A DNA stretch of 64,000 nucleotides, taken from NCBI GenBank assembly GCA_052327205.1, contig CM126207.1:54498001-54562000 (forward strand), read 5' to 3'. The notes under the pieces were generated by a model that was given only the letters and a program-made list of their open reading frames with translations, had not been told where the DNA came from and did not search any database. The stretch comes from Somniosus microcephalus (taxonomy: Eukaryota). Numbering within the stretch: the stretch's first letter is position 1; each line of letters opens with the position of its first letter. The position numbers were made by a program, and so were the translations under genes. Of this stretch, positions 27,401-64,000 are shown piece by piece.

Positions 27401-28075
27401 TTTGGGGCACTCTCCCAAGACTTTGTATTTTAGGTGGGGGGAGAAAAGAAGAAGCAAGGCCGGATCATCAAGGGGTGTAGTGTGTGTGTGTGTGGCTCTT
27501 GTTAAAAGCTAGGCCACACACACCACTAATTAGCATCCCTTCTATTGCCTGCCCTGGGAGAGCTTGGAGCTGCCCAAGGTGAAGTCCTTAATTTAATTTA
27601 ATTACATCGTTAAGACCTGTTGCAGGACTGAGCCTGAAAATAAAAGGCTTCTCCAGCTTTTCCAGGTGAAGACGTCTTCTCCCCCTGCCAGAAGACCACC
27701 ACCACCAAAGACTTTTTCCATCGGAGAGTGCAACCCTGCCAACACCCACCCACCATCCTGAGTGGCAACACTGCCCTTTGCGGCCTCCCTCCTTCCCACC
27801 CCCCCACCTCTCTCTCTCTCTCTGTCTCTCTCTGCCTGTCTTTCTAAGGCACCTTAGTTTCATCTATTTTATTAATTGCCAATTGAGCAGAGGGGAGAGG
27901 GCCCCTCTCCCAATTTAAATCAATAAGGAGAGAGGTGTGTCCTCATTTTAATCAGCTCCCTCTGCTCAATAGAGGACAAAAAAAATATATATACACCGAG
28001 GCCATTAACACCTTCAGGCCTGTGACTTGGGGTGAGTGTAGCCCTTAAAAAAAAAAAAAAAAAAAGCACCCCAGA

Positions 28076-30229: not shown

Positions 30230-30260
30230 GTGTAGGTAGAGGTTGCACTATGCTTCTGAC

Positions 30261-33200
30261 ATGAAGATAACCATAGCCAGCTTCAACATCAACGGCAGCA
30301 GGGAGGCGCGCCGCAGATTCAATAACTTCTCGGTCCTTCGGGACGGGAAGTATGCGGTGTGCTTCCTGCAAGAAACCCACACCGTTCCGGGAGACGAAGC
30401 CACGTGGCTCCTGGAGTGGCAAGGAGGGGTCAGCATGAGTCACCTCTCCAACAATTCCAGCGGGGTGGCTATCTTGCTGGCCCCGCATTTTCAGCCGGAG
30501 ATCTTGGGGGTCAAGGAGCACGTGCCGGGCCGCTTGCTCCAGGTCACTGTTCGCCTGGGGGGCGTGCCGCTCCATCTAGTGAACGTGTACGCCCCTCAGA
30601 CCAGTGCGCAGCAAGTGCACTTCTTCGAAGAAGTGTCCGCTCTCTTGGGCTCCATCGACGTGGGCGAGTGCGTCATCCTCGGGGGGGATTTTAACTGCAC
30701 CCTCGAGGCGAGGGACCGTTCGGGTCCCCCGCGAAGCCCGGCGGCGATGGAGAAGTTGAGGGACCTGGTTGGGTCCTTCGACTTGGTGGACGTCTGGCGA
30801 AATCTCCACCCCGACTCCAGCGCCTTCACTAGCGTGAGGTCTGGGGGAGGAAGGTCCAGAATCGACCGCCTCTACATTTCCCGGGCGTACGTCTCCTGCG
30901 TTCCGGCAGCTTCCATGCGGCCGGTGCCGTGCACGGACCACCACCTGGTGTGGGCGGAGCTCGCTCCGCTGCGCGCGCGGGGGGGGTCCGTGTACTGGCA
31001 TTTTAACAACCTGCTGCTGGAGGACGCACGGTTCCGGGATTCGTTTCGTCGATTCTGGGCCGACTGGAGAAGGAAGCAGGGGGGCTTCCCCTCCTTGAGG
31101 CTATGGTGGGATGTGGGCAAGGCTCACATCCGTCTCTTCTGTCAGGAGTACGCGAAGGGGTCGACCAAGAGGCGGGAGGCCCGGGTCGGGCGGTTGGAGA
31201 AGGAGGTGCTCGACCTGGAGTCCCGTCTCGGTCAGGTCGTCGAGGACCCGGCCCTGCGGAAGGTGTACGAAGAGAAGAAGGGCGCGCTGAAGGACCTGCA
31301 GCTCGTCGGGTCCCGAGGCGCGTACGTGAGGTCGCGGATCCAGCTCCTGCGGGACCTGGACCGCGGCTCCCCCTTCTTCTACTCGCTGGAAAAAAGACGG
31401 GGGGTCCGTAAGCAGCTCTTGGGGCTGCTGGCCGACGACGGATCTCTGGTCTCGGATCCGGAGGGAATCAGCGCGGAGACCCGCGCCTATTACGGGGCTC
31501 TGTTCTCTCCGGATCCATCCAGCGAGGATGCGCGCAGAGTTTTGTGGGAGGACCTGACGAAGGTTGGCCCGGAGGGCGCCGAAAAATTGGACGCTCCGCT
31601 AAGTCTGGCGGAGCTGACCGGCGCCCTCCGCCAGCTCTCTAGGGGAAAGTCCCCGGGGCTGGACGGGCTGACCGTGGAGTTCCACAGGGCGTTCTGGGAC
31701 GTCTTGGGGGGCGACTACGCGCGGGTCCTGGGGGAAAGTTTGGCGACCAGGGAGATGCCCCTCTCTTGGCGCAGGGCGGTCATTGTCCTGCTGCCTAAGA
31801 AGGGCGATCTCCGCCTCCTTAAGAACTGGCGCCCGGTCTCCCTCTTCAGCACGGACTATAAAATCTTTGCCAGTGCCATGTCTGCTTGCCTCGGCACCGT
31901 GCTGGCCCACATGATCCACCCCGACCAGTCCTACACGGTCCCGGGCCGGACCATCCACGATAACATCCACCTGGTCCGGGACCTGGTCCACCACTCCCAG
32001 AGGGCTGGTCTGTCGGTCGCCTTCCTTTCCCTGGATCAGGAGAAGGCGTTCGACAGGGTGGATCACGAGTATCTCTTCGGGACTCTGCGCGCATTCGGGT
32101 TCGGGACGCATTTTGTCGCCCGGATCCGACTTCTGTACGCCGCCGTGGAGTGTTTGATTAAAGTTAACGGGTCCTTGACGGCGCCCCTTCGCTTCGGGAG
32201 GGGGGTGCGTCAGGGATGCCCCATGTCCGGTCAGTTATACGCCGTTTGCGTGGAGCCATTCCTGCGCCTTTTGCGGAAGAGGTTGACGGGACTGGCTCTG
32301 CAAGGGCCGGGCGTGGAGGTGGTCCTCTCGGCTTACGCCGATGACGTGCTCCTCACGGTCACGGATCCCGCTGACTTGCGGAGGATGCGGGAATGCCAGC
32401 AGATTTACTCGGACGCATCCTCCGCCAAGATCAACTGGGAGAAATGTTCCGGACTCCTGGTGGGTCAGTGGCGGGTGGACTCCCTGCCAGAGGAGTTCAG
32501 GCCTTTCGCCTGGAGCACCACGCACCTCCTCTATTTGGGAGTCTACCTTAGCCCTGCCGAGGACGCCTGGCCGGCGAACTGGCAAGAGCTGGAGGCCAAA
32601 GTCACCACTCACCTAGGACGCTGGACAGGACTGCTCCGAGTGTTGTCCTACAGGGGTCGAGCGCTGGTCATAAACCAGCTGGTGGCCGCCATGTTGTGGT
32701 ACCGGTTGGTCACTTTGATCCCTCCCCCTGCGTTTGTCGCCAAGATGCAGAAGAAGCTCATCGACTTCTTCTGGGACAAAAGGAAGCACTGGGTCTCTGC
32801 CGCGGTTCTGTGTCTCCCACTTAGGGAGGGCGGTCAGGCGCTGGTGTGCCTTCGCACCCAGGCTGCGACTTTCCGTCTTCAGACTCTGCAGAGATACCTG
32901 TACGTCGAGAATCCTCCGAGATGGTGTGCGTTGGCGATGTTTTTCTTCCGCCAGCTGCACGGCCTCAATTACGACACGCAGCTCCTGTTCGCGAAAGTGG
33001 GCGGCAGGTGTGCCGGCCTGCGGGAGCTGCCTGTCTTCTACCAGGAACTGCTATGGGTTTGGAACTACGTCGCTTCCAGGCGGAGCTCTCCCCCCGTCAG
33101 GAGCGGCAGCTCTCCTTCGGGAGCCGCTGCTCAGGAATCCGCACCTCCACGAACGCGGGTTCGGGCGGCTGGCGGATGGCAGAGCTGTGCTTGGCAAGGT

Positions 33201-34159
33201 GACCAGAGTCGGGGACCTGCTCGATGGCGGAGGAGCGGGCTGGATGGCGCCGGAGGAGCTGGCGCGGCGCCTGTCCTGGGCCAACGTCCGGCTCGCGGTC
33301 GAAGCCATCGAATCGGTGAAATCGGCACTGGGCCCCGACTCCACTAGGTGTATCGAGGCGGCTCAAGCACGTGGGGCGATCCCGTCCAAGCTTACCCCCG
33401 TTCAGACGGAATTCCTCATCGGCGCCCGGCCCCGAATCTCCCCTCGGGAACCGGCGCCTCACAACTTGAGCCGTCTCGAGGAAATACCCTCCGTGCCTTT
33501 TCATTCCGCGCGGAGGGGTTTCCTGTACGGGCTGCTCCTGCACACTCTCCACTTTGCCATCTTCGTCTACCGTCCGGACACGCCTTGGCGTGGCGTCTTG
33601 CCGACTGGCGGTGGCGGAGGTCCCCAATGGAGGGCTCTCTATGCGGGAGTCCTCCCTTGTTCCATCGGGGACTTGGCCTGGAGGGTGTTGCACGGAGCGG
33701 TCCCGTGCAATAAGGTTTTAAGTAGGTTCACGGACTCCCAGGCCGCCTGCATTTTTTGCGGCCTGGAGGAGTCCGTGTTTCACCTTTATATGGAATGTGA
33801 GAGGTTGCAGCCCCTCTTTCACTACTTGAAGGGGCTGCTCCTCGATTTTTGGTTGCACTTCAGTCCCACGCTCTTGATCTACGGTCACCCGGTGCGGAGG
33901 GAAGCGGACAGGTTGGAGGACCTCCTTGTGGGCCTGCTCTTGGGCCTGGCAAAAAGCCATCAATTGGTCCAGGCAGCGGGCGGTCGAGGGGGTCGTCCAG
34001 CCGGATTGCCTGCCTCTCTTCCGCGGCCATGTTCATGCCCGGGTGGCCCTGGAGATGGAGCACGCGGTGTCCGCCGGTGCGCTTGAGTATTTCCGCGACC
34101 GGTGGGCGCCGCGGGGACTGGAGTGCATCATCAACCCGGAAAACAAAATTTTAATTTGA
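30261..34159 (+). pseudogene. Tx1 ORF2 (APE endonuclease, RT, C-terminal CCHC) with two frameshifts at about 33092 and 33953
   Basis: SFNING, FLQETH, GGDFN, SRIDR, TDH; KSPGLDG, LDQEKAFDRV, GVRQGCPMSG, AYADD; CIFCGLEESVFHLYMEC. Confidence 0.93.
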
Positions 34160-37844: not shown

Positions 37845-40800
37845 ATGCCTAAGCGAGGGAATATTAATGACTTTAATTCGGAAATAGAAGACTGGGCCAC
37901 GTACGTGGAACGCATAGAAATCTATTGCGAAGCCAACAAAATAGAGGAAGACGACAAGGCGATAACATTGCTAAACTCGATGGGGGCAAAAACATACGGG
38001 CTCTTGAAGCATCTAATAGCACCAAATAAACCAGCGGATCAGACCTTCGAAGAGATTGTGGCTGTGCTGAAGGACCATTTGAACCCCACACCGCTGATGC
38101 TGGCTGAACGATTCAAATTCTACGCAAGAACGCAGAAGAAAGACGAAAGCAATGCGGAATACTTGGTCGAACTGCGTAGGCTAGCGAAATACTGCCAGTT
38201 CGGAGGGAATCTGACAGAAGCGCTGCGGGACAAGTTCGTATGCGGATTGTCCAAAGAAGGGACGCAGAAGCGACTACTGGAAGAGAACGACCTCACACTG
38301 GACAGGGCTGTCCTTATAGCTGCATCGCACGAAGCCGCAGCGAAAGGAATGGCGGAAATGCAACTAAAGGCGGCGGCACTCGGGGTGGACCAAATTACTT
38401 CAAGCACAACAAAATGCTACCGTTGTGGGAAGACAACGCATGACCAGAATCAATGCTGGTTTAAGAACCAAGAGTGTAGGAAATGTGGCAAACTGGGTCA
38501 CATCGCGAAGGTATGCCGGTCCGGGAAAAAGACCAATAATCAAAGGAAGCCACCACCAGAAAAGTACAACAAGGTACACAAGGTGGCTGAGAAGAGTTCA
38601 GACGAACAGAATTCAGACTCAGACCCAAACAACCAGGAGCTGGGTAGGCTGAGAATCCACAATGTGGGTAAAGAAACGGATCTACAGGCCATCTGGGTCA
38701 CACTAAAAATAGCTGGAGTCCAAGTAAGAATGGAGCTGGACACTGGATCAGCTCTATCAGTCATCAACCGAAGGGACGACCACCGGCTATTCTCTCACAT
38801 ACCTTTAAGAAATACCAAGTTCGTATTACAGACATACACGGGGCATAACGTATACCCCGTGGGGAAAATAAGAGACAAGGTGAGAGATAGGGGTAAAGAA
38901 CACCCAAGAATGAACTTGTACGTATTACCTGAGGGAGGACCACCACTTCTAGGACGGGAGTGGATTAAGAAAATAGACATGGAATGGCATTACCTAAAAG
39001 CCATAATGAGGGAGGACTCGGTGCAAGCTATTAGCTCAGATTCTGAAATGGATGATGATAAGACCAAGTCGAATATGGAAGACAAGGCTAAAAGGGACTT
39101 GCCGACGGTGGGAAAGAAAACGAAGACATGCAGAAGGACTTATGGTACCAAGAAGAATAAAGCTGCAGAGCAGAACTCCAGGTTGACAGAGAATTCTGAG
39201 CCTGTTCAAGCAAAGGATTCATCCATGACGGAAGAACACCGAGCTCGGACGCAAACTTATGTCAAAGTACGACAACAATTAGAACAGTTGAGTGACCGTC
39301 TCGTACAAGAGATGAAAAATATGGAAAGGTTCTGGGACACCGAATGGGAGAACCTGGAAAGACTACAGAGGCAGCTAGCTCAAGCAGAGAGCGACCATAG
39401 AGCCATCGTGGTCAAATACCAATCACATTCCCCTGATGCTGTTCAGGAACTAGAATATTTACAGAATGAACCAAAGGAAGAGGAATCTTCAGGGAGCCAG
39501 GATTTTATTCCAGTTCTTCTCTACGACTCCTTACAAGCAGAGTGTGAGAAGTTGAAAGAACAGTATGAACAGGCCCAGGCTACAATTCTGGAGGGGGTTA
39601 ACTCGGCAGCCTCCGAAAAGCTAGTTTCAGTAGAAGCATATGAACAACTAAAGGTTGAACATGAGCAAGAAGTCCAAAGGCTGCAGGAAATTCTTGATGA
39701 GCTCAAGGCCAAGACAGACTCATCGGTAGGAGATCCATCCATAGATGAGAAATTAGAGGTGAAAATCATGGCAGAGCATGAAAGACAGGGGGCTAGATTT
39801 TCAGTATAGACAGTTTTGGGGCGCTAACCTTAGCGCCCGCCCGAAGTTAGCGCCCGCCCCAAAGTAGCGCCCCGTTGCCGGAAATTCAGTGGCTTCGCCC
39901 TAAGAGAGTGGTGGAGCGCTAAAAGAGGCATTCCACTCCTACCTTTAGGCGCTAAGCTGGCGGTCCAGAGGGATAGCGCCCAGGCGGGGCGCAGCGCGGG
40001 TGCGGTCATTTTTGCACTGACAGCAGACCCCGTGGTGCCGACCAGCTGTTAAAGGGGGAAGGGACGAATTGGTCTGCTGCCACGCCCTGCACACTGCAGC
40101 CTTGCAAAGAGGCCTCAACACTGCTGCTCAGCCCCAGGGAGTCATGGCAACGCCAGAGAAGGCCCGTCAGCGTGCCCTGCGCTTCTCAGAGGGTGATCTG
40201 GACATAATGGTCACAGCTCTGGAGGTGAGGCGCAAGATCTTGTTTCCAGAGAGTGGGAGGAATCCAACCCACCATGACTACACCAAAGCCTGGAAGCAGA
40301 TCACCCAGAGGGTGACGTTCACCGGCGATGCCCCCAGGACCCACAAACAATGTCGTAAAAAATACAACGATCTGACCAGGATTGTGAAGGTGAGTAGCCT
40401 TTCCAGTCTCCTCCTCATTCTTGCATGTACACCTGACATGATGGGCAAAGGGAGCTGAAAGTCCTATTGGCCAGCCCTCAGCCAGCAGCATTGGGACAGT
40501 CATGAGCATCAAATGGCCATTCGGCACTCTACACTTTGGCCAAGCTATTCCACCATGGGAGGCAGTGCACACTACATCAGGGCTTCACTCTCTCCAAGCT
40601 ATTCCACCATGGGAGGCAGTGCACTCTACATCAGGGCTTCACTCTGTCCAAGCTATTCCACCATGGGAGGCAGTGCACACTACATCAGGGCTTCACTGCG
40701 CACTTACAGCCCGTCCTTTCTCTTGCAGGCTAAAGTAGCGTTTAATCGCCAGGCCCATGCCAGGGGTGGCCGCGCCAAGCTGCAGAAGCTCACTCGGCTG

Positions 40801-43800
40801 GAGGAGCGCGTGTGTGTGCTCATGGGAGCCCGTGTGATTGTCCCCACAGCGTGCGGTGTATCCGACCCTCCACTGCCCGGCAATGGTAAGGACCTCGCCT
40901 TTTGGCCCTCTCGCGTCGCACTGGCCCATCCGAGCTACCTCCTTTGCCACTGTCCCACCAATGCGCTGAATGCCACCAGTCCTAACTCCCTCGCTGACGC
41001 CGTCTCCTCACTCTGAAGCTACTCTTGTGCATTCCTGCTTTCAGCTGGTGACGACCAGGACCCTGAAGCTGCCAGTGACAGCACCTCCGACCAGGAGGAG
41101 GAGGAGGAGCAAGCCGGACCTTCGGGGGAACAGTCACGTCCCACAGGAGAGGAGGAAATGCTTGACACCTCCTCACTGGACGAGTGCCTGGAGGAACTGT
41201 CGCAGGGCAATGCAGCTTCTGGGACCAGTGGCGTCCAGCCACCCAGGAGCCGTGCGCGTGGCCCGCGGCCTTCCCCCCAAAGGGGGGAAGGATCAGAGGG
41301 GAGTGCTGCTACTCGGCACACTCGCCGCCACCAACGCGGCAAGGGTCCCCTAGTTTGGCCCCCTCCTCCCCAGCGGGAGAGTCGCGACTCCAGTCCGGAC
41401 ACCTTCACTTCGGAGGAGGTGCGGAAGCTGGATAAGATGGCCGAGGACTCGGACCGGCGCCACACGGAGCTCATGAGCGTGGTGGGGTGCATGCCTGAGG
41501 CCATCGAGTCGCTGGCGACCAGTGTGCGCGAGTTCGGGGCAGCAACTGCCGCGAGTGGCCGCATGCTGACTGATGCCGTCAAGACCCTGGCGGCTGTGAT
41601 GCGCGCGCACACCAGGACCACAGGGGCACTCACTGCTGCCACACGCGCTGTCTCAGGCAGGCATCGCCAGGGCAGCCGCCGCGCTGGACCATCCCAGCAA
41701 GCCGCCCCTCGGCTGATTGCTGCGAATCCTGCAGTGCGGGCCCGGCCGAGTGCCACCGCGCCACAGCACCAGCCAGCGCATCCCAGACGCCAGCTGGCCC
41801 ACATTGCGCCATCCGTCGCCGCCATTCCCCCACTGGGGCATCAAGGGCAAGCGGCTGCAGCTGATGGTGGCCAGGCTCAGGTGCGCCACTCAGCAGACGG
41901 CCCCTCGAGGCCCAAACGCCGTGTAGGCTGCCCCCCAGCGGCATCTGGTGGAAGGGCATCTGAGCCTCAGGCGCCTTCCCCCAGCCTCGCAGCAGCCACT
42001 GGGCAGAGCTTGCGAAGGAGCAGCAGGCCGGGCAGGGGAGGCAAAAGGCTGGCCAAGGTCTCGCCCTCGCGGGCCACTCAGTAGAGGGTGTGGGCAGCTT
42101 TCCTTTAATATGGCGGTGGCCATCTTTATTTTGCCCATGGTTGTGTTGTTGGAGGGCTTATTTTTTGCGTTAGGCCGACGTTGAGGCCCGGTTTGAAGAA
42201 AGGTGGAGTGACTCCTCCCCAGTTTGTGGGAGTGAGTCGTTTATTGGGCTTTTTGTGGGGCCCGTTTATTGTTTTTGGGGATTCATGTGGGAAGGGCTTT
42301 TCATTTTTGTGCAATAAAAAATTATCTTTATTCATGCAGTCTCCATGGTTGTTCTTCTTAGTGTTTGTTGGCTCCGCCGGCTGAGGGCTTGCGGAGCGGC
42401 TGCATTCATCTTCCCTCATGGCCCCTGGCCATTCCCTGACAGGGGGCTTAGAAGTACCGTGTAATAAGGTGGCGTCGTGCGGCCCTTGGCCCTGGTCGCT
42501 CCCTCCTGGGAACGTACTCCTCCTCCTCCTCCTCCTCCTCATGCTCCTCCTGCTCCTCCGCCTGAGGTGCAGGTCCAACGTCAGGAGGCAGTGCCTGAGT
42601 CCTGCGGATAGCCAGGTTGTGTAGCATGCAGCAAACCACCACAAATTGGGAGACCCGGTCCGGCGAATACTGGAGAGCTCCTCCGGAGCGATCAAGGCAG
42701 CGGAACCGCTGCTTGAGGACCCCAATAGTTAGCTCGATGATGTTGCGGGTGGTTTGATGGCTCTCGTTGTAGGCCTCTTCAGCAGCGGTCCTGGGCGCGC
42801 GGAGCGGGGTCATGAGCCAGGTGCACAAAGGATAGCCTTTGCCCCCGATGAGCCATCCTCTTGGGGGAGGCTGTGCTTGGAACATGTCATGCACAGTACT
42901 CTGCCGCAGGATAAAGGCATCGTGGCTGCTGCCTGGGAAGCTGGCATTGACTGCCACGATGCGCTGCTTGTGGTCACATACCAGCTGCACATTCAGAGAA
43001 TGGTAGCCCTTCCTGTTGCGATACTGCTCGCCATGCTCCAGAGGGGCCCGCAAAGCCACATGCGTACAATCAATGGCGCCCTGCACCAAGGGGAATTCCC
43101 CGAGTCTGGCAAATCCCAATGCGCGCTGATGCTGGCTCTCGAGGGCCATGGGGAAGGAGATGAATTGGCTTCTCCTTCTGAACAGTGCTTCGGTCACCTG
43201 GTGGATGCAGCGATGCGCGCCGTACTGGGAGATGTTTGCTATGTCCCCAGCAGCGTATTGGAAGGAGCCGGTGGCATAGAAGTTCAATGCCACCGTCACC
43301 TTCACTTCCACCGACAGAGACGTCCTGCACCTGAGCTTTGGCCGCAGATCTCGGCGAAGCAGGTGGCAGATCTCTGCAATCACCTCCTTTCGGAATCGGA
43401 GCCTTTTAACACATCGCGCGGCACTCATGTTTAGGTAGGAGCGCTGCTGGCGGTATAGCCTGACTGGGTAAGGCCTACGTGGCCGACGCCTGTAGCCCCC
43501 TCTGCCTCTAGCCAGGGCTGCCCCTCTCACAATGCGTCTGCGAGCCCTACGGACATGGCGCTGCAGCTCCGCGTTGGCACCCCATGCAGGCCCCATCAAA
43601 TCCTGGCAAACAGTCTAATTTCCAAATGGCCACTTGCAGCGCTATGGCCTGAGTCCAAAAATACCTGGCTCTTGCTGCTTGAAACCAGTTAGCTATCCTC
43701 CTTGTTGTGTCTCCAGAAATGCGTTGCACAAGACTGTTTTCTGAAAAAAGGCTGGCCTTTATACTGGAGAGGACGTTCCCTTTAATTAGCGCCCCCCGGG

Positions 43801-50912: not shown

Positions 50913-52463
50913 GTGCCTGATAATCTACATCCTAGGGTACTTAAGGAAGTGGCCCTAGAAATAGTAGATGCATTGCTGATCATCTTCCAACATTCGATGG
51001 AATCTGGAACAGTACCCATGGATTGGAGGGTAGCTAATGTTACCCCACTATTCAAAAAAGGTGGTAGAGAGAAAAAGGGGAATTACAGACCGGTAAGCCT
51101 GACAACCGGTAGTGGGGAAAATGCTAGAGTCCATTATAAAAGATGTAATAGCATAGCACTTGGAAAACAGTGACAGGATCGGACAAAGTCAACATGGATT
51201 TACAAAAGGTAAATCGTGCTTGACTAATCTACTGGAATTTTTTGAGGATGTAACTGGTAAAATAGATAAGGGAGAACCAGTGGATGTGGTGTATTTGGAC
51301 TTTCAGAAGGCTTTCGATAAGGTCCCGCATAAGAGATTAGCGTGTAAAGTTAAGGCACATGGGATTGGGGGCAAGGTATTGACTTGGATAGAGAACTGGT
51401 TGGCAGACAGAAAGCAAAGAGTTGGAATAAACGGGTCTTTTTCCGAGTGGCAGGCAGTGACTAGTGGGGTACCGCAGGGATCGGTCCTTGGACCCCAGCT
51501 ATTCACAATATATATTAATGATCTAGACAAGGGAACTAGATGTAATATCTCCAAGTTTGCAGACGACACAAAGCTGGGTGGGCGTGTGTGCTGTGAGGAG
51601 GATGCCAAGAAACTCCAGGATGATTTGGACAGGTTGGGTGATTGGGCAGAAGCATAGCAGATGCAATATAACGTGGATAAATGTGAGGTTATCCACTTTG
51701 GTGGCAAAAACAGGAAGGCAAATTATTATCTGAATGACAATAGATTGGGAGAAGGGGAAGTGCAACGAGACCTGGGTGTCCTTGTGCACCAGTCGCTGAA
51801 GGTAAGCATGCAGGTGCAACAGGCGGTTAAGAAGGCAAATGGTATGTTGGCCTTCGTAGCAAGAGGGTTTGAGTACAGGAACAAGGATGTCTTGTACAGG
51901 GCCTTGGTGAGACCACATCTTGAGTATTGTGTGCAGTTTTGGTCACCTTATCTGAGGAAGGATGTTCTTGCCATGGAAGGAGTTCAGCGAAGATTCACCA
52001 GGCTGAAACCTGGGATGGCAGGAATGACGTATGAGCTGAGATTGGGTCGATTGGGCTTATACTCACTGGAGTTTAGAAGAATGAGAGGGGTTCTCATTGA
52101 AACTTTTAAAATTCTGACAGGACTGGACAGACTAGATGCAGGAAAATGTTCCCGATGGTCAGGGAGTCCAGAACCAGGGGTCACAGTCTAAGGATAAGGG
52201 GTAAGCCATTTAGGACAGAAATGAGGAGGAATTTCTTCACCCAGAGCGTGGTGAACCTGTGGAATTCTCTACCACAGAAGGCAGTAGAGGCCAATTCATT
52301 AAATATATTCAAGAAGGAGTTGGATATATTTCTTAAGGCTAAAGGGATCAAGGGGTATGGGGAGAAAGCAGGGACAGAGTTCTGAATTTGGATGATCAGC
52401 CATGATCGCATTGAATGGCGGAGCAGGCTCGAGGGGCCGAATGGCCTACTATGTTTTTATGTG
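50913..52463 (+). mobile_element. 5'-truncated CR1/HER1-like LINE (RT to 3' end)
   Basis: [44 protein letters not shown]; contains stops and frameshifts. Confidence 0.92.
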
Positions 52464-53790: not shown

Positions 53791-55723
53791 CAAGTCTCTT
53801 CCACCTGGACAGTGAGGTTGGAGGGCCTCTTGATGGACCTGTGGGAGTGTAAAGAGATTATTTAGAAATGTGTGCATCATGAATGTGTACCAATTATGCA
53901 CATGATGAACATTCACTGGCTGCTGACATCAGTCCCCATATGAGTGACTGCTGTATGCCATGTGATTGTATGAGATGCAATTCTGTCACCAGGTTGCTGA
54001 GAGGTCTCCTTTTCTCTGTCTCCCACCGCCAGCAGCTCTGCAACTCTGGAGACCTCCAGGGCCACCTCCTCTTCTGGAGTCAACATGGTGAATGATGGAG
54101 GGCCACCTCCGGTTCTCTTCCCTCTCCCTCTTATTGTGGGATCTCTTCTACAAGGAGGGAAAGAAGAGATGTTTGAGTGAGAGTGATGGCATGTGTGTAA
54201 TGAATGTGTGGCTTACATCTTTAGAGGGTGACTATGAGGGGGTGTGGTGCCAATGCCAAAGTTCCAATGCAAAGTGGCCTCTTTGTGTGTTGTCAGTTGG
54301 TATGATTGCATTAGGATAAGGGTGAATTTGAGTCGTGGTTAGTCAGATGGGGATGTGATAATGTAGATAGAGAGTGAGGGATGGGTGGACGTGCAAGGTA
54401 TGTTGGTTTGAGTAATGATGTACAGGAGTAGGTGTGGGAAGGCAGAGTGATGGGGATGTGATGAGAGGCACAGTAGGATGAAATTGAGTGTGGCTTTGTA
54501 CTTACCTTTCCTGAACTAATGAGATCACTGAAGCGCTTCCGGTCCTCCTGAATACACCCCTGCTGTTGACTTCCTCTGCTATCTCCAGCCAGGCTCTTTT
54601 GGTCTCCTGGGGTGGTCTCTTGAGCCCTTCAGAAGGGAAGAGGACCTCCCTGCGTTCTCGGACTCCCTGCACAAGCATATGTGGGGAGTCATCTGAGAAC
54701 CTGGGTGCAGCCCTCTGCCTCTGTGAAGCCATGTGCGCAAGGCTGAGCAGTAAGCAGATGCTGAAATGTTCAGCTTGCACACTCCTAGATGAATCTTCAA
54801 ATGCAATGTGGCCAAGGCTCCTTTAAATATCCCTGCTGGAAATGAGTAATCAATGATGTCATCAGACCCGCACCATTTAATAGGGCCGGCCGGCCTACCT
54901 TAATAGAGCCATTAAGGGAAAGTTGCTCTGAGGAACGTGATGATAAGAACAGGGTTCTGACCCACCATGCCAACTGACCGCACCCGAACTGCCCAGGTAA
55001 AGAAAATTCTGCCTAACTGTTCAGCATGGGTAGCAAAAATAATGGCAGTAAATTCTAATAATAATCTGCATGATTTAACATTTTTTTGCATGAAAACAAA
55101 ATGGTTACAGCTCAGCATGCTGCACTTTTTTTTATTCATTCATGGGTTGTGGGCGTTGCTTGCAAGGTCAGCATTTATTGCCTATCCCTAATTGCCCTTG
55201 AGAAGGTGGTGGTGAGCTGCCTTCTTGAACCACTGCAGTCCGTGTGGTGAAGGTTAGGGAGTGTGTTCCAGAACTTTCACCCAGCGACTATGAAGGATCG
55301 GCGATATATTTCCAAGTCAGGATGGTGTGTGACTTGGAGGGGAACTTGCAGGTGGTGCTGTTCCCATGCGCCTGCTGCCCTCGTCCTTCTAGGTGGCAGA
55401 GGTTGCAGGTTTGAGATGTGCTGCCGAAGAAGCCTTGGCGAGTTGCTGCAGTGCATCCTGTAGATGGTACACACTGCAGCCACAGTGTGCTGGTGGCGGA
55501 GGGAGTGAATGTTTAAGGTGGTGGATGGGGTGTCAATCAAGCGGGTTGCTTTGTCCTGGATGTTGTTGGAGCTGCACTCATTCAGGCAAGTGGAGAGTAT
55601 TCCATCACACTCCTGACTTGTGCCTTGTAGATGGTGGAAAGGCTTTGGGGAGTCATGTGGTGATTCACTCGCTGTAGAATACCCAGCCTCTGACCTGCTC
55701 TTGTTGCCACAGTATTTATGTAG

Positions 55724-58700
55724 TGTGGTAAACCACTGTTTGTATTCCACTGTGTACATGCCTGTACATGCCTCGGCTGACTCCTCCCACGAATCCAGGT
55801 ATAAAGGTGACTGCTCCACAGCCCCTTTGTATTCTGGACCGGTCGACCACTCGAGGCACACCTTCATTCTCTTGTTAATAAAAGCCTGTTAATTACTCGC
55901 TTAATCTCAGTCTTTTGAGTTATTGATAGCGCATCAATTTTATTAACAAGATTTTTATAATGGAGAAGATCCTCACACCAGCATGCCTGGACTTAGATCA
56001 TCGGGAGGTGGACTCATCCATCAAGTTTACTCACTGGCTTAGGTGTTTCGAAAAATTCCTGACCGCCTCCGCTGTAATCAAATCGGACGAGGACAAACTG
56101 GATGTCCTGACCTCCAAAGTGAACCACCGAGTGTACTCGGTCATCCAAGACGCGACCTCGTACGCAGATGCTATCAAGCTCCTCAAGGACCAGTACACGC
56201 GCCCAGTGAACGAAGTGTACGCCAGGCACCTTCTGGGGAGTCGTAAACAACAACCTGGGGAATCGACCGAGGAATACCTTTAGGCACTGTCTGTGCTTGG
56301 CCGGGCCTATGGTTGTAAGGATGTAAAGGCCGCCGTGTACACAGAGGAACTTATCCGGGACGCTTTTGTAGCGGGCCACAGGTCCAATTACACCCGACAG
56401 CGACTGTTGGAGCAGAGTGACCTCGACCTCAACAAGGCCTCTGAACTCGCACTATCATTGGACGCAGCCTACCGGGGCATGGATGCCTACTCCTCTGCAC
56501 CGTGGACGCCGCGGGGAACGACAGCCTGGGACACGGTAGGACCGTCTCATAGCGCCGTGCCACCCCAGCCACATCCCAGCCACGGCTCAACTACCGCAGC
56601 AGTGTCCCAAGGCCAGACAGCAGTGCCCCAAGGCCAGAAATGCTACTTCTGTGGCCAGGCCAAACACCCCAGAGCGCGCTGCCCGGCGAAAAATGCGATC
56701 TGCTCGGGCTGCGGGAAGAAGGGACACTACGCCAGCATCTGCAGGGCCAAAGCCACCCCGAACCCCAGCAGCGCCGCGTGTGGGCCGTGCGAGCCGCCAT
56801 CTTGGGCCTCCCCAGCCATGTGCGAACCACCGGAACAGCAGCCATTTTGGACGCCTCCAGCCACATGGGGATCATGGACGCCGCCATCTTGGATGACAGC
56901 CGGGACGCAGCAGGCCCCCAACACCGCCTCATCTGATACCCGCAGCGACACACCGACCCCTACGCTGGCCTCCGTTACACTGGACCAAGTGAGACCGCAC
57001 CAGCTGGCCAGTTCCACAATGGACATTAAGGTAAATGGTCATGAAACAATCTGCCTTTTTGACTCTGGGAGCATGGAGAGCTTCATCCACCCCGACACGG
57101 TGCGGCATTGCTCTCTCCCAGTCCTGCCTGCGCACCAGCGGATTTCTATGGCCTCCGAGTCCCAGTCGGCGGACATTGGCAGCCACTGCGTGGTGACACT
57201 CGTAGTAGACGGGACTGTGTACGATAATTTTAAACTTCTGGTCCTGCCCGACCTCTGCGCTGCCGTTCTACTGGGGTTAGATTTTCAGTGCCACCTTAAA
57301 AGTGTTACGATGGCGTACGGTGGACCCCTCCCCCCACTCACAGTCCGCAGCCAGCAGCTTCCAAATTGCCCGCCGCGCACCAGGTGCAACCTCTCCACAC
57401 TCAGAGTCACCCCCCCCCCCCCCACTCTTTGCTAACCTCACCCCCGACTGTAAGCCCATCGCCACAAAGAGCAGGCGATACAGTACCGGGGACAGGGTTT
57501 TCATTAAAACCGAAGTGGAGCGGCTCCTGAAGGAAGGGATTATTGAGGGCAGCACCAGCCCCTGGCGAGCCCAGGTTGTGGTCGTTAAGACCGGCGAGAA
57601 GCAGCGCCTGGTCATCGACTACAGCCAGACAATAAATCGCTACACCCTGCTGGACGCTTACCCACTCCCCCGCATAGCTGATATGGTCAACCAGATCGCG
57701 CAGTACCGCGTCTTCTCGACCATTGACCTGAAATCAGCATACCACCAGCTCCCTATCCGCCCTGATGACCGCCAGTATACTGCCTTTGAGGCAAACGGCC
57801 GCCTCTATCACTTCCTTAGGGTTCCCTTTGGCGTCACCAACGGGAGATGGACCGGATGGTCGATCAAAATGCGTTGCAGGCCACTTTCCCATATCTGGAC
57901 AATGTGACCATCTGCGGCCATGACTTGCAGGACCATGATGCAAACCTCGAAAAATTCCTCTGCACCGCCAAACTCCTCAACCTGACGTATAACAAGGAGA
58001 AGTGCATATTCCGCACAACCCGCCTCGCCATCCTTGGCTGTGTTGTGGAACACGGAGTCATCGGCCCCGACCCCGACCGGATGCGTCCCCTTATGGAACT
58101 CCCACTGCCTCAAGGCCCTGAAGAGGTGCCTAGGGTTTTTCTCTTATTACGCCCAGTGGGTCCCCTACTATGCGGACAAGGCCCGTCCGCTGATCAAGTC
58201 CACCTCTTTTCCCGTGACGGCAGAGACCCGCTTAGCCTTCCACCGTATCAAGGAAGACATTGCCAAAGCCACCATGCACGCAGTGGACGAATCCATCCCC
58301 TTCCAGGTGGAAAGCGACGCGTCCGACTTTGCCCTGGCCGCTACCCTTAATCAGGCGGGGAGACCCGTGGCCTTCTTTTCACGAACCCTCCAGGGCCCGG
58401 AGACCAGACACTCCGCTGTTGAGAAGGAGGCCCAGGCTATTGTGGAGGCTGTGCGTCATTGGAGGCACTACCTGCCCGGAAAACGATTTACCCTGCTCAC
58501 TGACCAGCGTTCAGTTGCTTTTATGTTTAACAACAAGCAGAGGGGCAAAATCAAAAACGACAAGATCTTGAGGTGGAGAATCGAACTTTCCACCTACAAT
58601 TACGAGACCTTGTACCGGCCCGGGAAGCTCAATGAACCCCCGGATGCTCTATCGCGTGGCACCTGCGCCAGCGCGCAGATCGATAGACTGCGGGCCCTCC

Positions 58701-60024
58701 ACAATGACCTCTGCCACCCGGGGGTCACCAGGCTCTTCCACTTCATCAAGGCCCGCAACCTGCCTTACTCCATTGAGGAGGTCAGGACCATGACCAGGAA
58801 CTGCCAAGTCTGCGCTGAGTGCAAACTGCACTTTTATAGACCAGACAGGGCTCACCTGATAAAAGCCACTCGCCCCTTCGAGCGCCTGAGCGTTGATTTT
58901 AAAGGGCCTCTCCCCTCCTCTGACCGCAATGTGCACTTCCTCAATATTATTGATGAGTACTCCCGTTTCCCGTTCGCCATCCCCTGCCCGGACATGACCA
59001 GTGCCACGGTCATTAAATGTCTGAACGACCTCTTCACCCTGTTCGGTTTCCCCAGCTATATCCATAGCGACCGGGGCTCATCGTTTATGAGCGACGAACT
59101 GCGTCAGTACCTTCTAGCTAGGGGTATTGCCACAAGCAGGACCACCAGTTACAACCCCCGGGGGAACGGACAGGTGGAAAGAGAGAATGCGACAGTTTGG
59201 AAGGCCGCCCTGCTAGCCTTAAAGTCTAGGGGCCTTCTGACCTCCCGCTGGCAGGATGTGCTCCCCGATGTGCTCCACTCTATTAGGTCACTGCTCTGTA
59301 CTGCCACTAGCGCCACCCCTCACGAGAAAATGTTTGTCTTCCCAAGGAAGTCCACGTCGGGGACATCGCTACCCGCCATGGCTGACGTCCCCAGGGCCGG
59401 TCCTACTGAGAAGACACGTGAGGACCCATAAAACAGACCCCCTGGTCGAGAGGGTCGACCTCCTCCACGCCAACCCCCAGTATGCTTACATTGCGTACCC
59501 GGACGGGCGGGAGGACACAGTCTCCATAAGAGACCTCGCACCCTTGGGGGCCGCAGTAACCCACTACCCACTACCCCCCCCCCCCCCAACGATCCGATAT
59601 CCAGCCCCAGCAGACGGCAGGCCTGGGCCCCGCGACCCGCTCGACATCTACGAGGACTACACACCAGTGCCCATGCCTACGCGGGACTCGACGCTGGAAG
59701 CTTCACTACCCTTGCCGTCGCCACGTCGATCACAGCGGCAGACAAGACCTCCGGAGAGACTCCAATACACTAACTTTTAATACACTTCACCCCGCTGGAC
59801 TCAATTTTAAACAAGGGGTGAATGTGGTAAACCACTGTTTGTATTCCACTGTGTACATGCCTGGCTGACTCCTCCCACGAATCCAGGTATAAAGGTGACT
59901 GCTCCACAGCCCCTTTGTATTCAGGACCGGTCGACCACTCGAGGCACACCTTCATTCTCTTGTTAATAAAAGCCTGTTAATTACTCGCTTAATCTCAGTC
60001 TTTTGAGTTATTGATAGCGCATCA
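55724..60024 (+). mobile_element. Full-length Gypsy/Ty3 LTR retrotransposon
   Basis: LTRs 55724-55936 and 59823-60024 (differing by a 10-bp duplication, a 1-bp indel and about 1 substitution), TSD TGTAG, PPT AAACAAGGGGTGAA. Confidence 0.95.
55960..59780 (+). pseudogene. gag-pol (Gag, CCHC x2, protease, RT, RNase H, integrase) with a stop at 56281 and several frameshifts
   Basis: CYFCGQAKH/CSGCGKKGH, LFDSGS, IDLKSAYHQ, PFG, YLDN, ESDASD, LLTDQ, H..LCH...CQVC, VDFKGP, HSDRG, GNGQVER. Confidence 0.93.
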
Positions 60025-60136
60025 TGTAGCTGCTCCAGTTAAGTTTCTGGTCAAATGGCAACCCCCAAGGATGTTAACGGTGGGGGATTCGGCAATGATA
60101 ATCCCATTGAATGTCAAGGGGAGGTGGTTAGACTCT

Positions 60137-62046: not shown

Positions 62047-64000
62047 TCATAAGAACATAAGAACATAAGAAATAGGAGCAGGAGTAGGCCAATCGGCCCC
62101 TCGAGCCTGCTCCGCCATTCAATAAGATCATGGCTGATCTGATCCTAACCGCCAATCTACTATCACAGAACCATCTCCTGATTCTAACAGAATTAGACAC
62201 ACGCAATAGGAGCAGGATCAGGCTACATGGCCCCTGGGCCCGCTCCGCTACCCACAGGGCCATGTCCGATCCGAACCTAGACTCATGTCCAAATTCCTGC
62301 CCGCTCCCCGTAACCCTTAATTCCCTTTACTTCTAGGAAACTGTCTATTTCTGTTTTAAATTTATGTAATGATGTAGCTTCCACAGCTTTTTGGGGCAGC
62401 ATATTCCATGGACCTACCACCCTCTGAGTGAAGTAGTTCCTCCTCATCTCAGTTTTGAAAGAGCAGCCCCTTATTCTACGACTATGCCCCCTAGTTCTAG
62501 TTTCACCCATCATCGGGAACATCCTCCCCGCATCCACCCGATCCAACCCCTTCACAATCTTATATGTTTCAATAAGATCGCCTCTCATTCTTCTGAACTC
62601 CAATGAGTAGAGTCCCAATCTACTCAACCTCTCCTCATATGTCCATCCCCTCATCCCCGGGATTAACCGAGTGAACCTTCTTTGTACTGACTTGAGAGCA
62701 AGTATGTCTTCTTAAGTATGGACACCAAAACTGTATGCAGTATTCCAGGTGCGGTCTCACAAATACCTTGTACAACTGAAGCAATACCTCCCTATTTTTA
62801 TATTCTATCCCCTTAGCAATGAAAGCCAACATTCCATTGGCCTTCTTAATCACTTGCTGCACCTGCATACTAACCTTTTGAGTTTCGTGCACCAGGACCC
62901 CCAGATCCCTTTGTACTTCAGTACTTTCCAGTTTCTTGCCATTAAGATAATAACTTGCTCTACGATTTTTCCTGCCAAAGTGCATAACCTCACACTTTCC
63001 AGTATTGTATTCCATCTGCCAAATCTCTGCCCACTTACTTAGCCTGTCTATGTCCCCTTGCAGGTTTTTTATGTCCTCCTCACTCACTACTTTCCCTCCC
63101 ATCTTAGTATCATCTGCAAACTTTGATATGTTACACTCGGTCCCCTCCTCCAAATCGTTAATATAGATTGTAAAGAGTTGGGGACCCAGCACTGACCCCT
63201 GCGGAACACCACTAGTTACTGATTGCCAGTCTGAGAATGAACCATTTATCCCAACTCTCTGCCTTCTGTTAGATAGCCAATCCTCTCTCCATGCCAGAAT
63301 ATTACCCCCAATCCCGTGATTTTTTATCTTAAGCAATAATCTTTTGTGTGGCACCTTGTCAAATGCCTTTTGGAAGTCTAAATACACTACGTCCACTGGT
63401 TCCCCTTTATCCACCCTGTATGTTACTTCCTCAAAGAACTCCAGCAAATTTGTCAAACATGACTTCCCCTTCATAAAACCATGCTGACTTTGTCCTATTA
63501 AATTATGATTATCCAAATGTCCTGTTACTGTCTCCTTAATAATGGACTCCAATATTTTACCTACCACAGATATTAGGCTAACCGGCCTATAGTTTCCAGC
63601 CTTCTGTCTACTGCCCTTTTTAAATAAGGGTGTTACATTAGCAGTTTTCCAGTCTGCCGGGACCTTTGCCGAGTCCAGGGAGTTTTGGAAAATTATTACC
63701 AATGCATCCACAATCTCTACCGCCACTTCCCTCAAGACCCTTGGATGTAAGCCATCAGGTCCAGGTGATTTATCTGCCTTGAGTCCCATTATTTTACCGA
63801 GTACCACTTCCTTCGTGATTTTGGTCGTGCTTAGCTCCTCCCCCCCCATAGCCCCCTGTTTGTCCAGTGTTGGGATATTCTTAGTGTCCTCTACTGTAAA
63901 GACTGATACAAAATATTCATTCAGTGTTTTTGCCATCTCCATATTTCCCACCATTAATTTCCCAGTCTCATCCTCTAAGGGACCAACATTTACTTCAGCC
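62047..64000 (-). mobile_element. CR1/HER1-like LINE (RT to 3' end), continuing beyond the window
   Basis: ORF 62635-63954 has [24 protein letters not shown] and KFADD; frameshift near 62700; tail (TTCTTATG)n. Confidence 0.93.

What the first reader, a model, noticed from the sequence alone, without database searches (positions are those of the whole stretch)
55870..55951. Gypsy with no tRNA PBS: the PBS position is a perfect 14-nt complement of its own LTR AATAAA region
Seen in sequence: after the 5' LTR end (…GCATCA, 55936) there is no TGG. Instead 55938-55951 (TTTTATTAACAAGA) is the exact reverse complement of 55870-55883 (TCTTGTTAATAAAA), which includes the poly(A) signal. The Gag ATG follows only 23 nt after the LTR. 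In this pairing the 3' end of the LTR strand sits 1 nt from the U5 edge, where a tRNA CCA would normally anneal. Established: Tf1/sushi elements self-prime using the first ~11 nt of the transcript. Here the partner lies roughly 40 nt downstream of the TATA-predicted start (TATAAA at about 55800). Inference: either a distinct tRNA-independent priming mode, a hairpin that masks the 5' poly(A) signal, or both.
Basis: partly seen in the sequence, partly recalled or inferred. Interest (0 to 1): 0.72.

Follow-up and report, generated by a model that had tools for sequence, protein, structure and literature searches.

The report
Gypsy retrotransposon that primes on itself
This young jumping gene has no tRNA landing site; that spot instead pairs letter for letter with a stretch of the element's own end-repeat, and related animal elements keep the pairing while changing the letters, so the whole lineage likely starts copying itself with a piece of its own RNA, as the yeast element Tf1 does.

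Summary
Confirmed. 55938-55951 is the exact reverse complement of 55870-55883, one base after the LTR's terminal CA, with no TGG. The element is a young 4.3-kb Gypsy with 441 exact junction copies in this genome. The pairing is lineage-wide: 35 of 44 loci have an exact stem of 11 bp or more, against 0 of 43 control sites; 12 of 13 pairs show two-sided changes in 26 sequences. In the same genome, Mag-like Gypsies carry tRNA sites and a chromodomain (sushi-like) Gypsy carries its own self-priming stem. This lineage lacks the chromodomain and is 28% identical to it. Best reading: Tf1-like self-priming outside the Tf1/sushi group; the cut and the priming are inferred. Poly(A) masking alone is unlikely, since only 15 of 28 families have AATAAA/ATTAAA in the arm. 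The TATA is kept about 70 nt upstream of the arm in this genome's subfamilies, so the primer may be a ~53-nt capped leader; RNA reads did not place the start. This scan noted the same signature before in other animal genomes.

The parts
55719..55723 (.). left target-site duplication (5 bp)
   Evidence: identical to 60025-60029
55724..55936 (+). 5' LTR, 213 nt, TG...CA
   Evidence: direct repeat with 59823-60024
55800..55805 (+). TATA box candidate; predicts a start near 55831
   Evidence: only TATAAA in the LTR; kept 79-85 nt upstream of the arm's 3' end in 56 of 59 located copies of other subfamilies in this genome and in all five correctly oriented rows; function inferred
55870..55883 (+). 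LTR arm, the predicted self-primer's pairing end; predicted cut between 55883 and 55884
   Evidence: exact complement of 55938-55951; covaries with it across relatives; cut inferred
55877..55882 (+). AATAAA, the only canonical poly(A) hexamer of the LTR, inside the arm
   Evidence: use as poly(A) signal not shown
55884..55932 (+). inner R/U5 helix stacked on the primer stem (U5-IR-like)
   Evidence: folds; significant in 3 of 7 subfamily representatives of this genome
55938..55951 (+). primer-binding site, 1 nt after the LTR; no TGG
   Evidence: junction exact in 441 places of this genome
55960..59780 (+). gag-protease-RT-RNase H-integrase region; in this copy interrupted by an in-frame stop in gag and split over several frames in pol; no chromodomain
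   Evidence: ORFs, Pfam
59809..59822 (+). purine-rich tract directly before the 3' LTR (plus-strand primer site)
   Evidence: sequence; similar G-rich tracts before the 3' LTR of relatives
59823..60024 (+). 3' LTR, 202 nt; holds a second copy of the arm
60025..60029 (.). right target-site duplication

Best explanation
The 14-base stem is the conserved primer-site pairing of a widespread chromodomain-less animal Gypsy lineage, which likely primes reverse transcription with its own RNA instead of a tRNA. Shown: the site one base after the LTR is complementary to an LTR segment ending in a run of A, in this element and across the lineage, with the letters changing in step. Inferred by analogy with Tf1: the 5' end of the transcript folds back so that the arm (55870-55883) anneals to the site (55938-55951); the element's RNase H cuts after 55883; the new 3'-OH starts minus-strand DNA one base outside the LTR's CA; the R sequence left 3' of the cut (from 55884 to a poly(A) site predicted about 15-30 nt past AATAAA) serves for the first strand transfer. 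Where the transcript starts is not shown. In this genome the conserved TATA predicts a start near 55831, making the primer a capped ~53-nt piece paired only by its last 14 bases (about 45% of this explanation's weight); a start at or just before the arm, as in Tf1, is the alternative (about 55%). Hiding the 5' AATAAA may be a side effect.
For: 1) Motif-free scan upstream of gag: 35 of 44 loci have an exact stem of 11 bp or more (median 13), 0 of 43 control sites inside gag (median 6); 46 of 90 loci were skipped for lack of a gag start or upstream DNA. 2) One row per family: 28 of 30 pair at 10 or more of 12 positions, 23 at 12 of 12; pairs 5-12 are 98% Watson-Crick with the own arm and 48% with swapped arms. 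3) 26-sequence alignment: 97.3% of 338 cells paired, 12 of 13 pairs with two-sided changes, 82 such cells, 0 of 500 shuffles as high; slid registers 28-50% paired. 4) The stem starts 1 nt after the terminal CA in 26 of 28 families (2 nt in two) while the loop varies from about 23 to 86 nt: a fixed register is what a primer needs and a regulatory hairpin does not. 5) G-U pairs are nearly absent from the stem (1 of 336; 2 of 338) but are 37 of 262 in predicted loop helices, as expected for strict primer pairing or for a site re-copied from the primer. 6) In this genome five arm variants shared by two or more copies each come with the matching site. 7) Same-genome controls: four Mag-like elements have TGG sites and self-stems of 3-4 bp; a chromodomain element has an 11-bp self-stem also starting 1 nt after CA; the site of three of the four Mag-like elements matches the tRNA-Ser(GCU) ends listed in PMC13524379 supplement 3. 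8) Precedent: Tf1 primes with its first 11 bases after RNase H cleavage (PMC7175516) within a three-helix 'pretzel' (PMC10085805).
Against: No cut, primer or RNA-DNA junction was observed. RNA reads from a related organism showed no sharp start or end in the LTR; in one run sense depth stayed at 60-100 across the LTR and rose only after 55950 to about 1000 in gag, which fits neither predicted start well and may reflect the hairpin, LTR divergence or a downstream start. 9 of 44 loci had exact stems under 11 bp; seven are explained by single mismatches or a wobble (10-11 of 12) but L044 and L070 (8 and 9 of 12) are not. The inner helix is significant in only 3 of 7 subfamily representatives and RNAalifold found no shared inner helix across 26 sequences. 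The register was chosen by maximising Watson-Crick pairs and energy-based folds favour G-U, so the wobble contrast is inflated by an unknown amount. Rows are related, so cells overstate independent changes. Four single copies have a changed site with an unchanged arm, so copies are not always matched.
Confidence: 0.74

Rival explanations
1. Self-priming, but by the 3' copy of the arm: the transcript's 3' end (from the 3' LTR, which also holds the arm) pairs with the site and is cut or trimmed back to the A run, priming on the same or the second packaged RNA.
For: The 3' LTR holds the same arm; the arm overlaps the only AATAAA, so the RNA's 3' end lies close by; the model needs no particular start site, which suits the distant TATA and the low sense depth over the 5' arm. 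All covariation results fit it equally.
Against: Trimming to the arm would remove the R sequence needed for strand transfer on that molecule (inference). The inner helix joining the arm's 3' neighbour to U5 can form only in the 5' context. No precedent found in the papers read.
Confidence: 0.1
2. The stem is a regulatory hairpin that hides the 5' poly(A) signal (or aids packaging or translation); priming happens by another, unseen route.
For: AATAAA lies inside the arm here and AATAAA/ATTAAA in 15 of 28 families; positions 1-3 of the arm are A in 27 of 28.
Against: 13 of 28 families lack a canonical hexamer in the arm, three carry one in the loop (L032, L033, L114), and L075 changes the A run with compensation; masking does not explain the fixed 1-nt register, the lack of G-U pairs, or the absence of any other primer site.
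Confidence: 0.08
3. The site binds a host tRNA half, tRNA fragment or other small RNA, and the LTR match is secondary.
For: Half-tRNA priming exists in some Ty1/copia lineages (PMC6317226). The host's full tRNA set was not searched.
Against: No TGG; no Rfam tRNA match over 55650-56050 at E up to 5; the site differs from family to family and always tracks its own LTR, even between subfamilies of one genome, which one conserved host RNA cannot do.
Confidence: 0.03
4. Chance complementarity in AT-rich sequence, or a one-off local duplication.
For: Both arms are AT-rich (11 of 14 bases A or T).
Against: 0 of 1000 shuffles exceed 9 bp; conserved with changed letters among elements down to about 53-60% RT-RNase H identity to the reference protein.
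Confidence: 0.01

Closest known systems
Tf1/Tf2 (Schizosaccharomyces pombe), Tj1 and Tosmo elements; Tf1/sushi group of chromoviral Ty3/gypsy elements
   Same: No tRNA site; primer site just after the 5' LTR complementary to an LTR segment of similar length (11 nt in Tf1; PMC7175516); extra helices beside the primer stem (PMC10085805). The sushi-like element of this genome shows the same 1-nt register.
   Different: No chromodomain or Tf2-type SH3 in 0 of 30 relatives scanned or in this copy's integrase tail; 28% identity in RNase H-integrase to this genome's chromodomain elements. The arm overlaps the poly(A) hexamer and lies 23-86 nt from the LTR end, whereas in the sushi-like control it starts 30 nt after a TATA-like motif, 160 nt from the LTR end, with the hexamer candidate far downstream.
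Tcn1 (Ty3/gypsy) and TAR/Houba/Osr-1 (Ty1/copia) lineages of plants and fungi
   Same: Self-priming predicted from LTR-PBS complementarity (PMC6317226), showing the mechanism is not confined to one clade.
   Different: Tcn1 is chromoviral and TAR is copia; neither is a chromodomain-less animal Gypsy.
Cigr-1 / RepeatMasker class Gypsy-Cigr (and Tor2, MolGy clades)
   Same: Named chromodomain-less animal Gypsy clades found in tunicates, molluscs and annelids (PMC6238403, PMC8556966). From memory only, Cigr-1 has one ORF of about 1,200 codons, short LTRs and a 5-bp duplication, as this lineage does.
   Different: No reference sequence was available, so identity with Cigr was not tested; the passages read say nothing on its primer site; the original paper is not held.
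Mag lineage and CsRn1 clade
   Same: Animal Gypsies with short LTRs; two CCHC knuckles in Gag resemble Mag (label recalled).
   Different: Mag-like elements here have TGG tRNA sites and fall on a separate long branch; CsRn1 has a tRNA-Trp site, a CHCC Gag motif and 4-bp duplications (PMC2582038).

Membership tests
Ty3/gypsy LTR retrotransposon | Two LTRs with target duplication and PR-RT-RNase H-IN order | tested here: met
Self-primed LTR elements (works like Tf1) | No tRNA-type (TGG) primer site | tested here: met
   none of 28 families with a stem has TGG after the LTR; no Rfam tRNA match
Self-primed LTR elements (works like Tf1) | Primer site complementary to own 5' LTR, conserved by compensatory change | tested here: met
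Self-primed LTR elements (works like Tf1) | The complementary segment is the very 5' end of the transcript | tested here: inconclusive
   TATA spacing predicts a start about 40 nt upstream; RNA reads gave no start
Self-primed LTR elements (works like Tf1) | Flanking 'pretzel' helices | tested here: inconclusive
   inner helix significant in 3 of 7 subfamilies; short hairpin after the arm predicted in many families; none shared; no helix 3' of the site seen
Self-primed LTR elements (works like Tf1) | RNase H cleavage at the arm's 3' end and extension from it | not testable with these tools
   needs biochemistry or particle nucleic acids
Tf1/sushi chromoviruses (membership) | Integrase C-terminal chromodomain | tested here: not met
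   0 of 30 relatives and window 59256-59777; detected at E 5e-9 and 5e-10 in two control elements
Tf1/sushi chromoviruses (membership) | Pol sequence nested among chromoviruses | tested here: not met
   28-31% identity; own branch with SH-aLRT 99-100 in quick trees; only one chromoviral family was available, so a sister relation is not excluded
Mag lineage | tRNA primer site and Pol clustering with Mag-like elements | tested here: not met
   the Mag label of the controls is recalled from their integrase motif, not from a reference sequence
CsRn1 clade | tRNA-Trp site, CHCC Gag motif, 4-bp duplication | tested here: not met
   no TGG, CCHC motifs, 5-bp duplication
Cigr-1 / Gypsy-Cigr clade | Pol clustering with Cigr-1 | not testable with these tools
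   no reference sequence in the papers or supplements searched

The most novel reading that the evidence does not exclude
An independently evolved self-priming system in a large animal Gypsy lineage, in which the primer is not the transcript's first 11 bases but an internal or 3'-terminal segment ending on the poly(A) hexamer: a capped ~53-nt leader (or the RNA's own 3' end) that anneals by only its last 14 bases, coupling 3'-end processing signals to priming.
Probability: 0.35. Interest if true: 0.76.

Novelty: new variant of a known kind. Interest (0 to 1): 0.58.

Why it matters
In the papers read, self-priming among Gypsy elements is tied to the chromoviral Tf1/sushi group. A second, chromodomain-less lineage whose close relatives are annotated from sharks and rays, a sea anemone, a shrimp, a nematode and a rotifer would show that escaping tRNA priming is widespread in animals and may have arisen more than once. 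Such elements are missed by tRNA-based PBS annotation and would be out of reach of 3' tRNA-fragment silencing (inference). The family is young, has hundreds of copies and is transcribed in a related organism, and one genome holds tRNA-primed, sushi-type and this type side by side, so the start site and the cut can be mapped by ordinary RNA-end sequencing.

Tried and rejected
Gag alone found no homologues among longer proteins. Single-protein scans of viral and metagenome contigs and an alignment scan of viral contigs gave no loci. No RNA holder was listed for the stretch; the reads laid came from a related organism and gave no start, end or poly(A) tail among the rows shown (82 loose ends not shown). 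A first family table located LTR ends by motif and mis-placed L034, L060, L070 and L074; it was replaced by the motif-free scan. Six rows were mis-located (longer leader) and were placed; L018 gave no stem there. Two of seven rows were in the wrong orientation and were ignored. Idea that the arm's conserved G at position 10 (23 of 28) with A at 11 (17 of 28) is a splice acceptor, prompted by earlier BEL/Pao notes: rejected, 9 of 28 including this element have T at 11, and 40 nt is too short for an intron; an initiator reading remains possible but pairs 13-14 still exceed the swap control (0.82 against 0.50). Idea that the outer end of the stem is a hypervariable junction marking the primer's 5' end: only weakly raised in one of four subfamilies, not supported. 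A>G changes in the site of 4 of 11 variant copies could be RNA editing or plain transitions: too few. The one-clade test left clade members outside the constrained group and says nothing on a sister relation to chromoviruses; the careful tree did not finish (quick tree used; P0024 left out). Copies with a changed arm were not listed genome-wide, so whether a new arm mutation is copied into the site in one round stays open. Literature: ten searches showed no paper describing self-priming in a chromodomain-less animal Gypsy clade; subscription papers, Repbase and GyDB are not covered, and I recall without being able to check that Repbase entries mention self-primed Gypsy families in invertebrates.

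Full report
Observation. The element runs from 55724 to 60024 between 5-bp target duplications, with LTRs of 213 and 202 nt that differ by one substitution and one 11-nt gap. After the 5' LTR's CA comes one A, then 55938-55951, the exact reverse complement of 55870-55883; there is no TGG within 20 nt and the gag ATG is at 55960. In 1000 dinucleotide shuffles of the LTR the longest complementary run was 9. The region folds with z -5.96, the 14-bp stem continuing into an inner helix at 55884-55932. The coding region carries protease, RT, RNase H and integrase in Gypsy order; this copy has an in-frame stop in gag and is split over several frames in pol.

The family. The genome has 6.4 billion bases; all 40 scored matches to the 5' end were 99-100% identical and the exact LTR/site/ATG junction occurs 441 times. 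The closest named proteins are from rays and sharks (77-85% over RNase H-integrase), followed by a sea anemone (67%), a rotifer, a nematode and a shrimp and many unnamed single-ORF proteins of about 1,200 residues. A profile of 60 of these fetched 80 metagenome loci (best 80 of 507) and 8 contigs from the genome collection.

The pairing is lineage-wide. LTR pairs were found by alignment in the loci that hold both; their 5' LTR ends in CA followed by A and a T run, not TGG, and 7 of 13 checked show a 5-bp duplication with my rough boundary rule. A scan using no motif looked for the longest exact stem upstream of gag: 35 of 44 loci reach 11 bp or more against 0 of 43 control sites; 46 of 90 loci were skipped because the gag start or upstream DNA was missing. 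With one row per family, 28 of 30 pair at 10 or more of 12 positions and 23 at all 12; the variable pairs 5-12 are 98% paired with the own arm and 48% with swapped arms; 4 of 756 swaps reach 12 of 12, which I attribute to near-identical families. L044 and L070 did not pass. On 26 aligned sequences RNAalifold predicts exactly this 13-bp helix; 97.3% of 338 cells pair, 12 of 13 pairs have two-sided changes, and no shuffle or slid register comes near. These counts overstate independent events because rows are related, but the stem is kept among elements only 53-60% identical to the reference in RT-RNase H. Inside this genome, 105 of 106 loci examined have a stem of at least 10 of 13, and five arm variants shared by two or more copies each come with the matching site; four single copies with a changed site keep the old arm, as expected for decay after insertion.

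Why priming rather than regulation. The stem starts 1 nt after the terminal CA in 26 of 28 families while the loop varies from about 23 to 86 nt. The start of minus-strand DNA defines the LTR end, so a primer needs this register (established for LTR elements; PMC5006619 passages). G-U pairs are 1 of 336 in the stem against 37 of 262 in predicted loop helices, a contrast partly inflated by method. A canonical poly(A) hexamer lies in the arm in 15 of 28 families; L075 replaces the A run with a compensated variant, and L032, L033 and L114 have a hexamer in the loop. A host tRNA fragment is implausible because each family's site follows its own LTR; Rfam found no tRNA in the region and ARAGORN none in the window, though the host's tRNA set was not searched.

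Controls in the same genome. An RNase H family search gave other Gypsies; of nine control stretches fetched, six gave a usable LTR pair. Four Mag-like elements have TGG sites and self-stems of 3-4 bp; three of those sites match tRNA-Ser(GCU) ends in PMC13524379 supplement 3. Two sushi-like elements lack TGG; L161 has an 11-bp self-stem 1 nt after CA and a chromodomain, and in L162 my scan found a 9-bp match. In L161 the arm starts 30 nt after a TATA-like motif, 160 nt before the LTR end, with the hexamer candidate 86 nt further on: the Tf1 layout.

Not a Tf1/sushi member. None of 30 relatives nor this copy's integrase tail has a chromodomain. Identity to this genome's chromodomain elements is 28% over RNase H-integrase and about 30% over RT-RNase H for the reference relative. 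Quick trees set the lineage on its own long branch (SH-aLRT 99-100), apart from the chromodomain and Mag-like elements; with so few outgroups, shared or separate origin of self-priming is unresolved. The lineage may be the described Cigr clade (PMC6238403 and PMC8556966 passages; size match recalled), which I could not test.

Where does the transcript start? In this genome a TATA motif stands 79-85 nt upstream of the arm's 3' end in 56 of 59 located copies of other subfamilies; it is kept while the spacer diverges, one subfamily has a variant that still fits the TATA consensus, and GC-box-like motifs precede it in some. That predicts a start near 55831 and a primer of about 53 nt paired by 14. 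Against this, 18 of 26 families from other hosts have no TATA-like motif in the up to 130 nt held, and the arm has a conserved G ten bases before the cut (23 of 28) in an initiator-like context. RNA reads from a related organism show strong sense transcription of gag in one run but no sharp start. The question is open and is the main possible novelty.

Mechanism proposed. Shown: complementarity, register, covariation, absence of a tRNA site. Inferred from Tf1 (PMC7175516, PMC10085805, PMC4600332, PMC5341516 passages): fold-back of the 5' arm, RNase H cut after 55883, extension from that end, strand transfer through the short R left after the cut. Rivals: priming by the 3' copy of the arm (0.10), regulatory hairpin only (0.08), host small RNA (0.03), chance (0.01).

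Literature seen. Passages by term search only: PMC3601003, PMC13524379 (supplement list; part 1 of 2 of supplement 3), PMC6317226, PMC10085805, PMC6238403 (five supplements searched, one picture file not), PMC6934838, PMC2582038, PMC8556966 (supplements searched except files 11, 13, 14), PMC4600332, PMC5341516, PMC2774666, PMC4402516, PMC7175516, PMC5006619. The primary papers of Levin, Lin and Butler were seen only as citations; the Cigr-1 paper is not held. Ten searches gave no description of self-priming in a chromodomain-less animal Gypsy clade; Repbase, GyDB and unsearched supplements could hold one. Earlier notes of this scan, read after my reading was formed (two searches gave nothing), report the same signature in other animal genomes; they are unchecked and are not counted as evidence.

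Verdict. A real, conserved feature; a new variant of a known kind: Tf1-like self-priming in a separate animal Gypsy lineage, with a possibly different primer geometry. Interest 0.58.

Noticed in passing
L161 (G000:C5:29098500-29108400, minus strand), L162: A chromodomain-bearing, sushi-like Gypsy family in this genome has its own self-priming signature: 11-bp stem starting 1 nt after CA, arm 30 nt after a TATA-like motif.
   Followed up: partly
L002:1878-1895: A copy of the window's family and a copy of a sister subfamily sit back to back about a dozen bases apart, each with its own flank; chance or shared target preference not tested.
   Followed up: no
L205 (G000:C3:13881000-13890000); G000:C20:55183260-55200598; G000:C3:15190165-15194722: Neighbouring copies spaced about 4.1-4.25 kb: two LTR-plus-site junctions 4,109 bp apart, five gag matches at about 4,248-bp steps and a pair 4,141 bp apart, suggesting tandem arrays.
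   Followed up: partly
L124, L125, L126, L127, L182: A>G changes at the two As in the middle of the primer site with an unchanged arm, which would give G-U pairs; possibly A-to-I editing of the RNA stem fixed by reverse transcription, or ordinary transitions.
   Followed up: partly
window 55871 and 55950: In RNA reads of a related organism both partners of this base pair vary in complementary ways (C>G with G>C, C>T with G>A), though linkage on single reads was not shown.
   Followed up: no
window 55930-56160: Sense RNA depth in one run rises from about 75 to about 1000 only downstream of the primer site, recalling the start just upstream of the coding region reported for Tf2 in wild-type cells (PMC5341516); may equally be a library or mapping effect.
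   Followed up: no
L111-L118: Eight contigs filed under bacterial genomes in the genome collection encode relatives of this animal retrotransposon, several with LTRs, likely host DNA in those bins.
   Followed up: no
window 51109-52450 and 62083-63999: Two oppositely oriented LINE-like reverse-transcriptase remnants, about 71-73% alike, flank the region; CR1 label recalled, not tested.
   Followed up: no
window 28001-34000 and 40001-42000: GC-rich stretches (62-66%) against a background of 37-52%; not examined.
   Followed up: no
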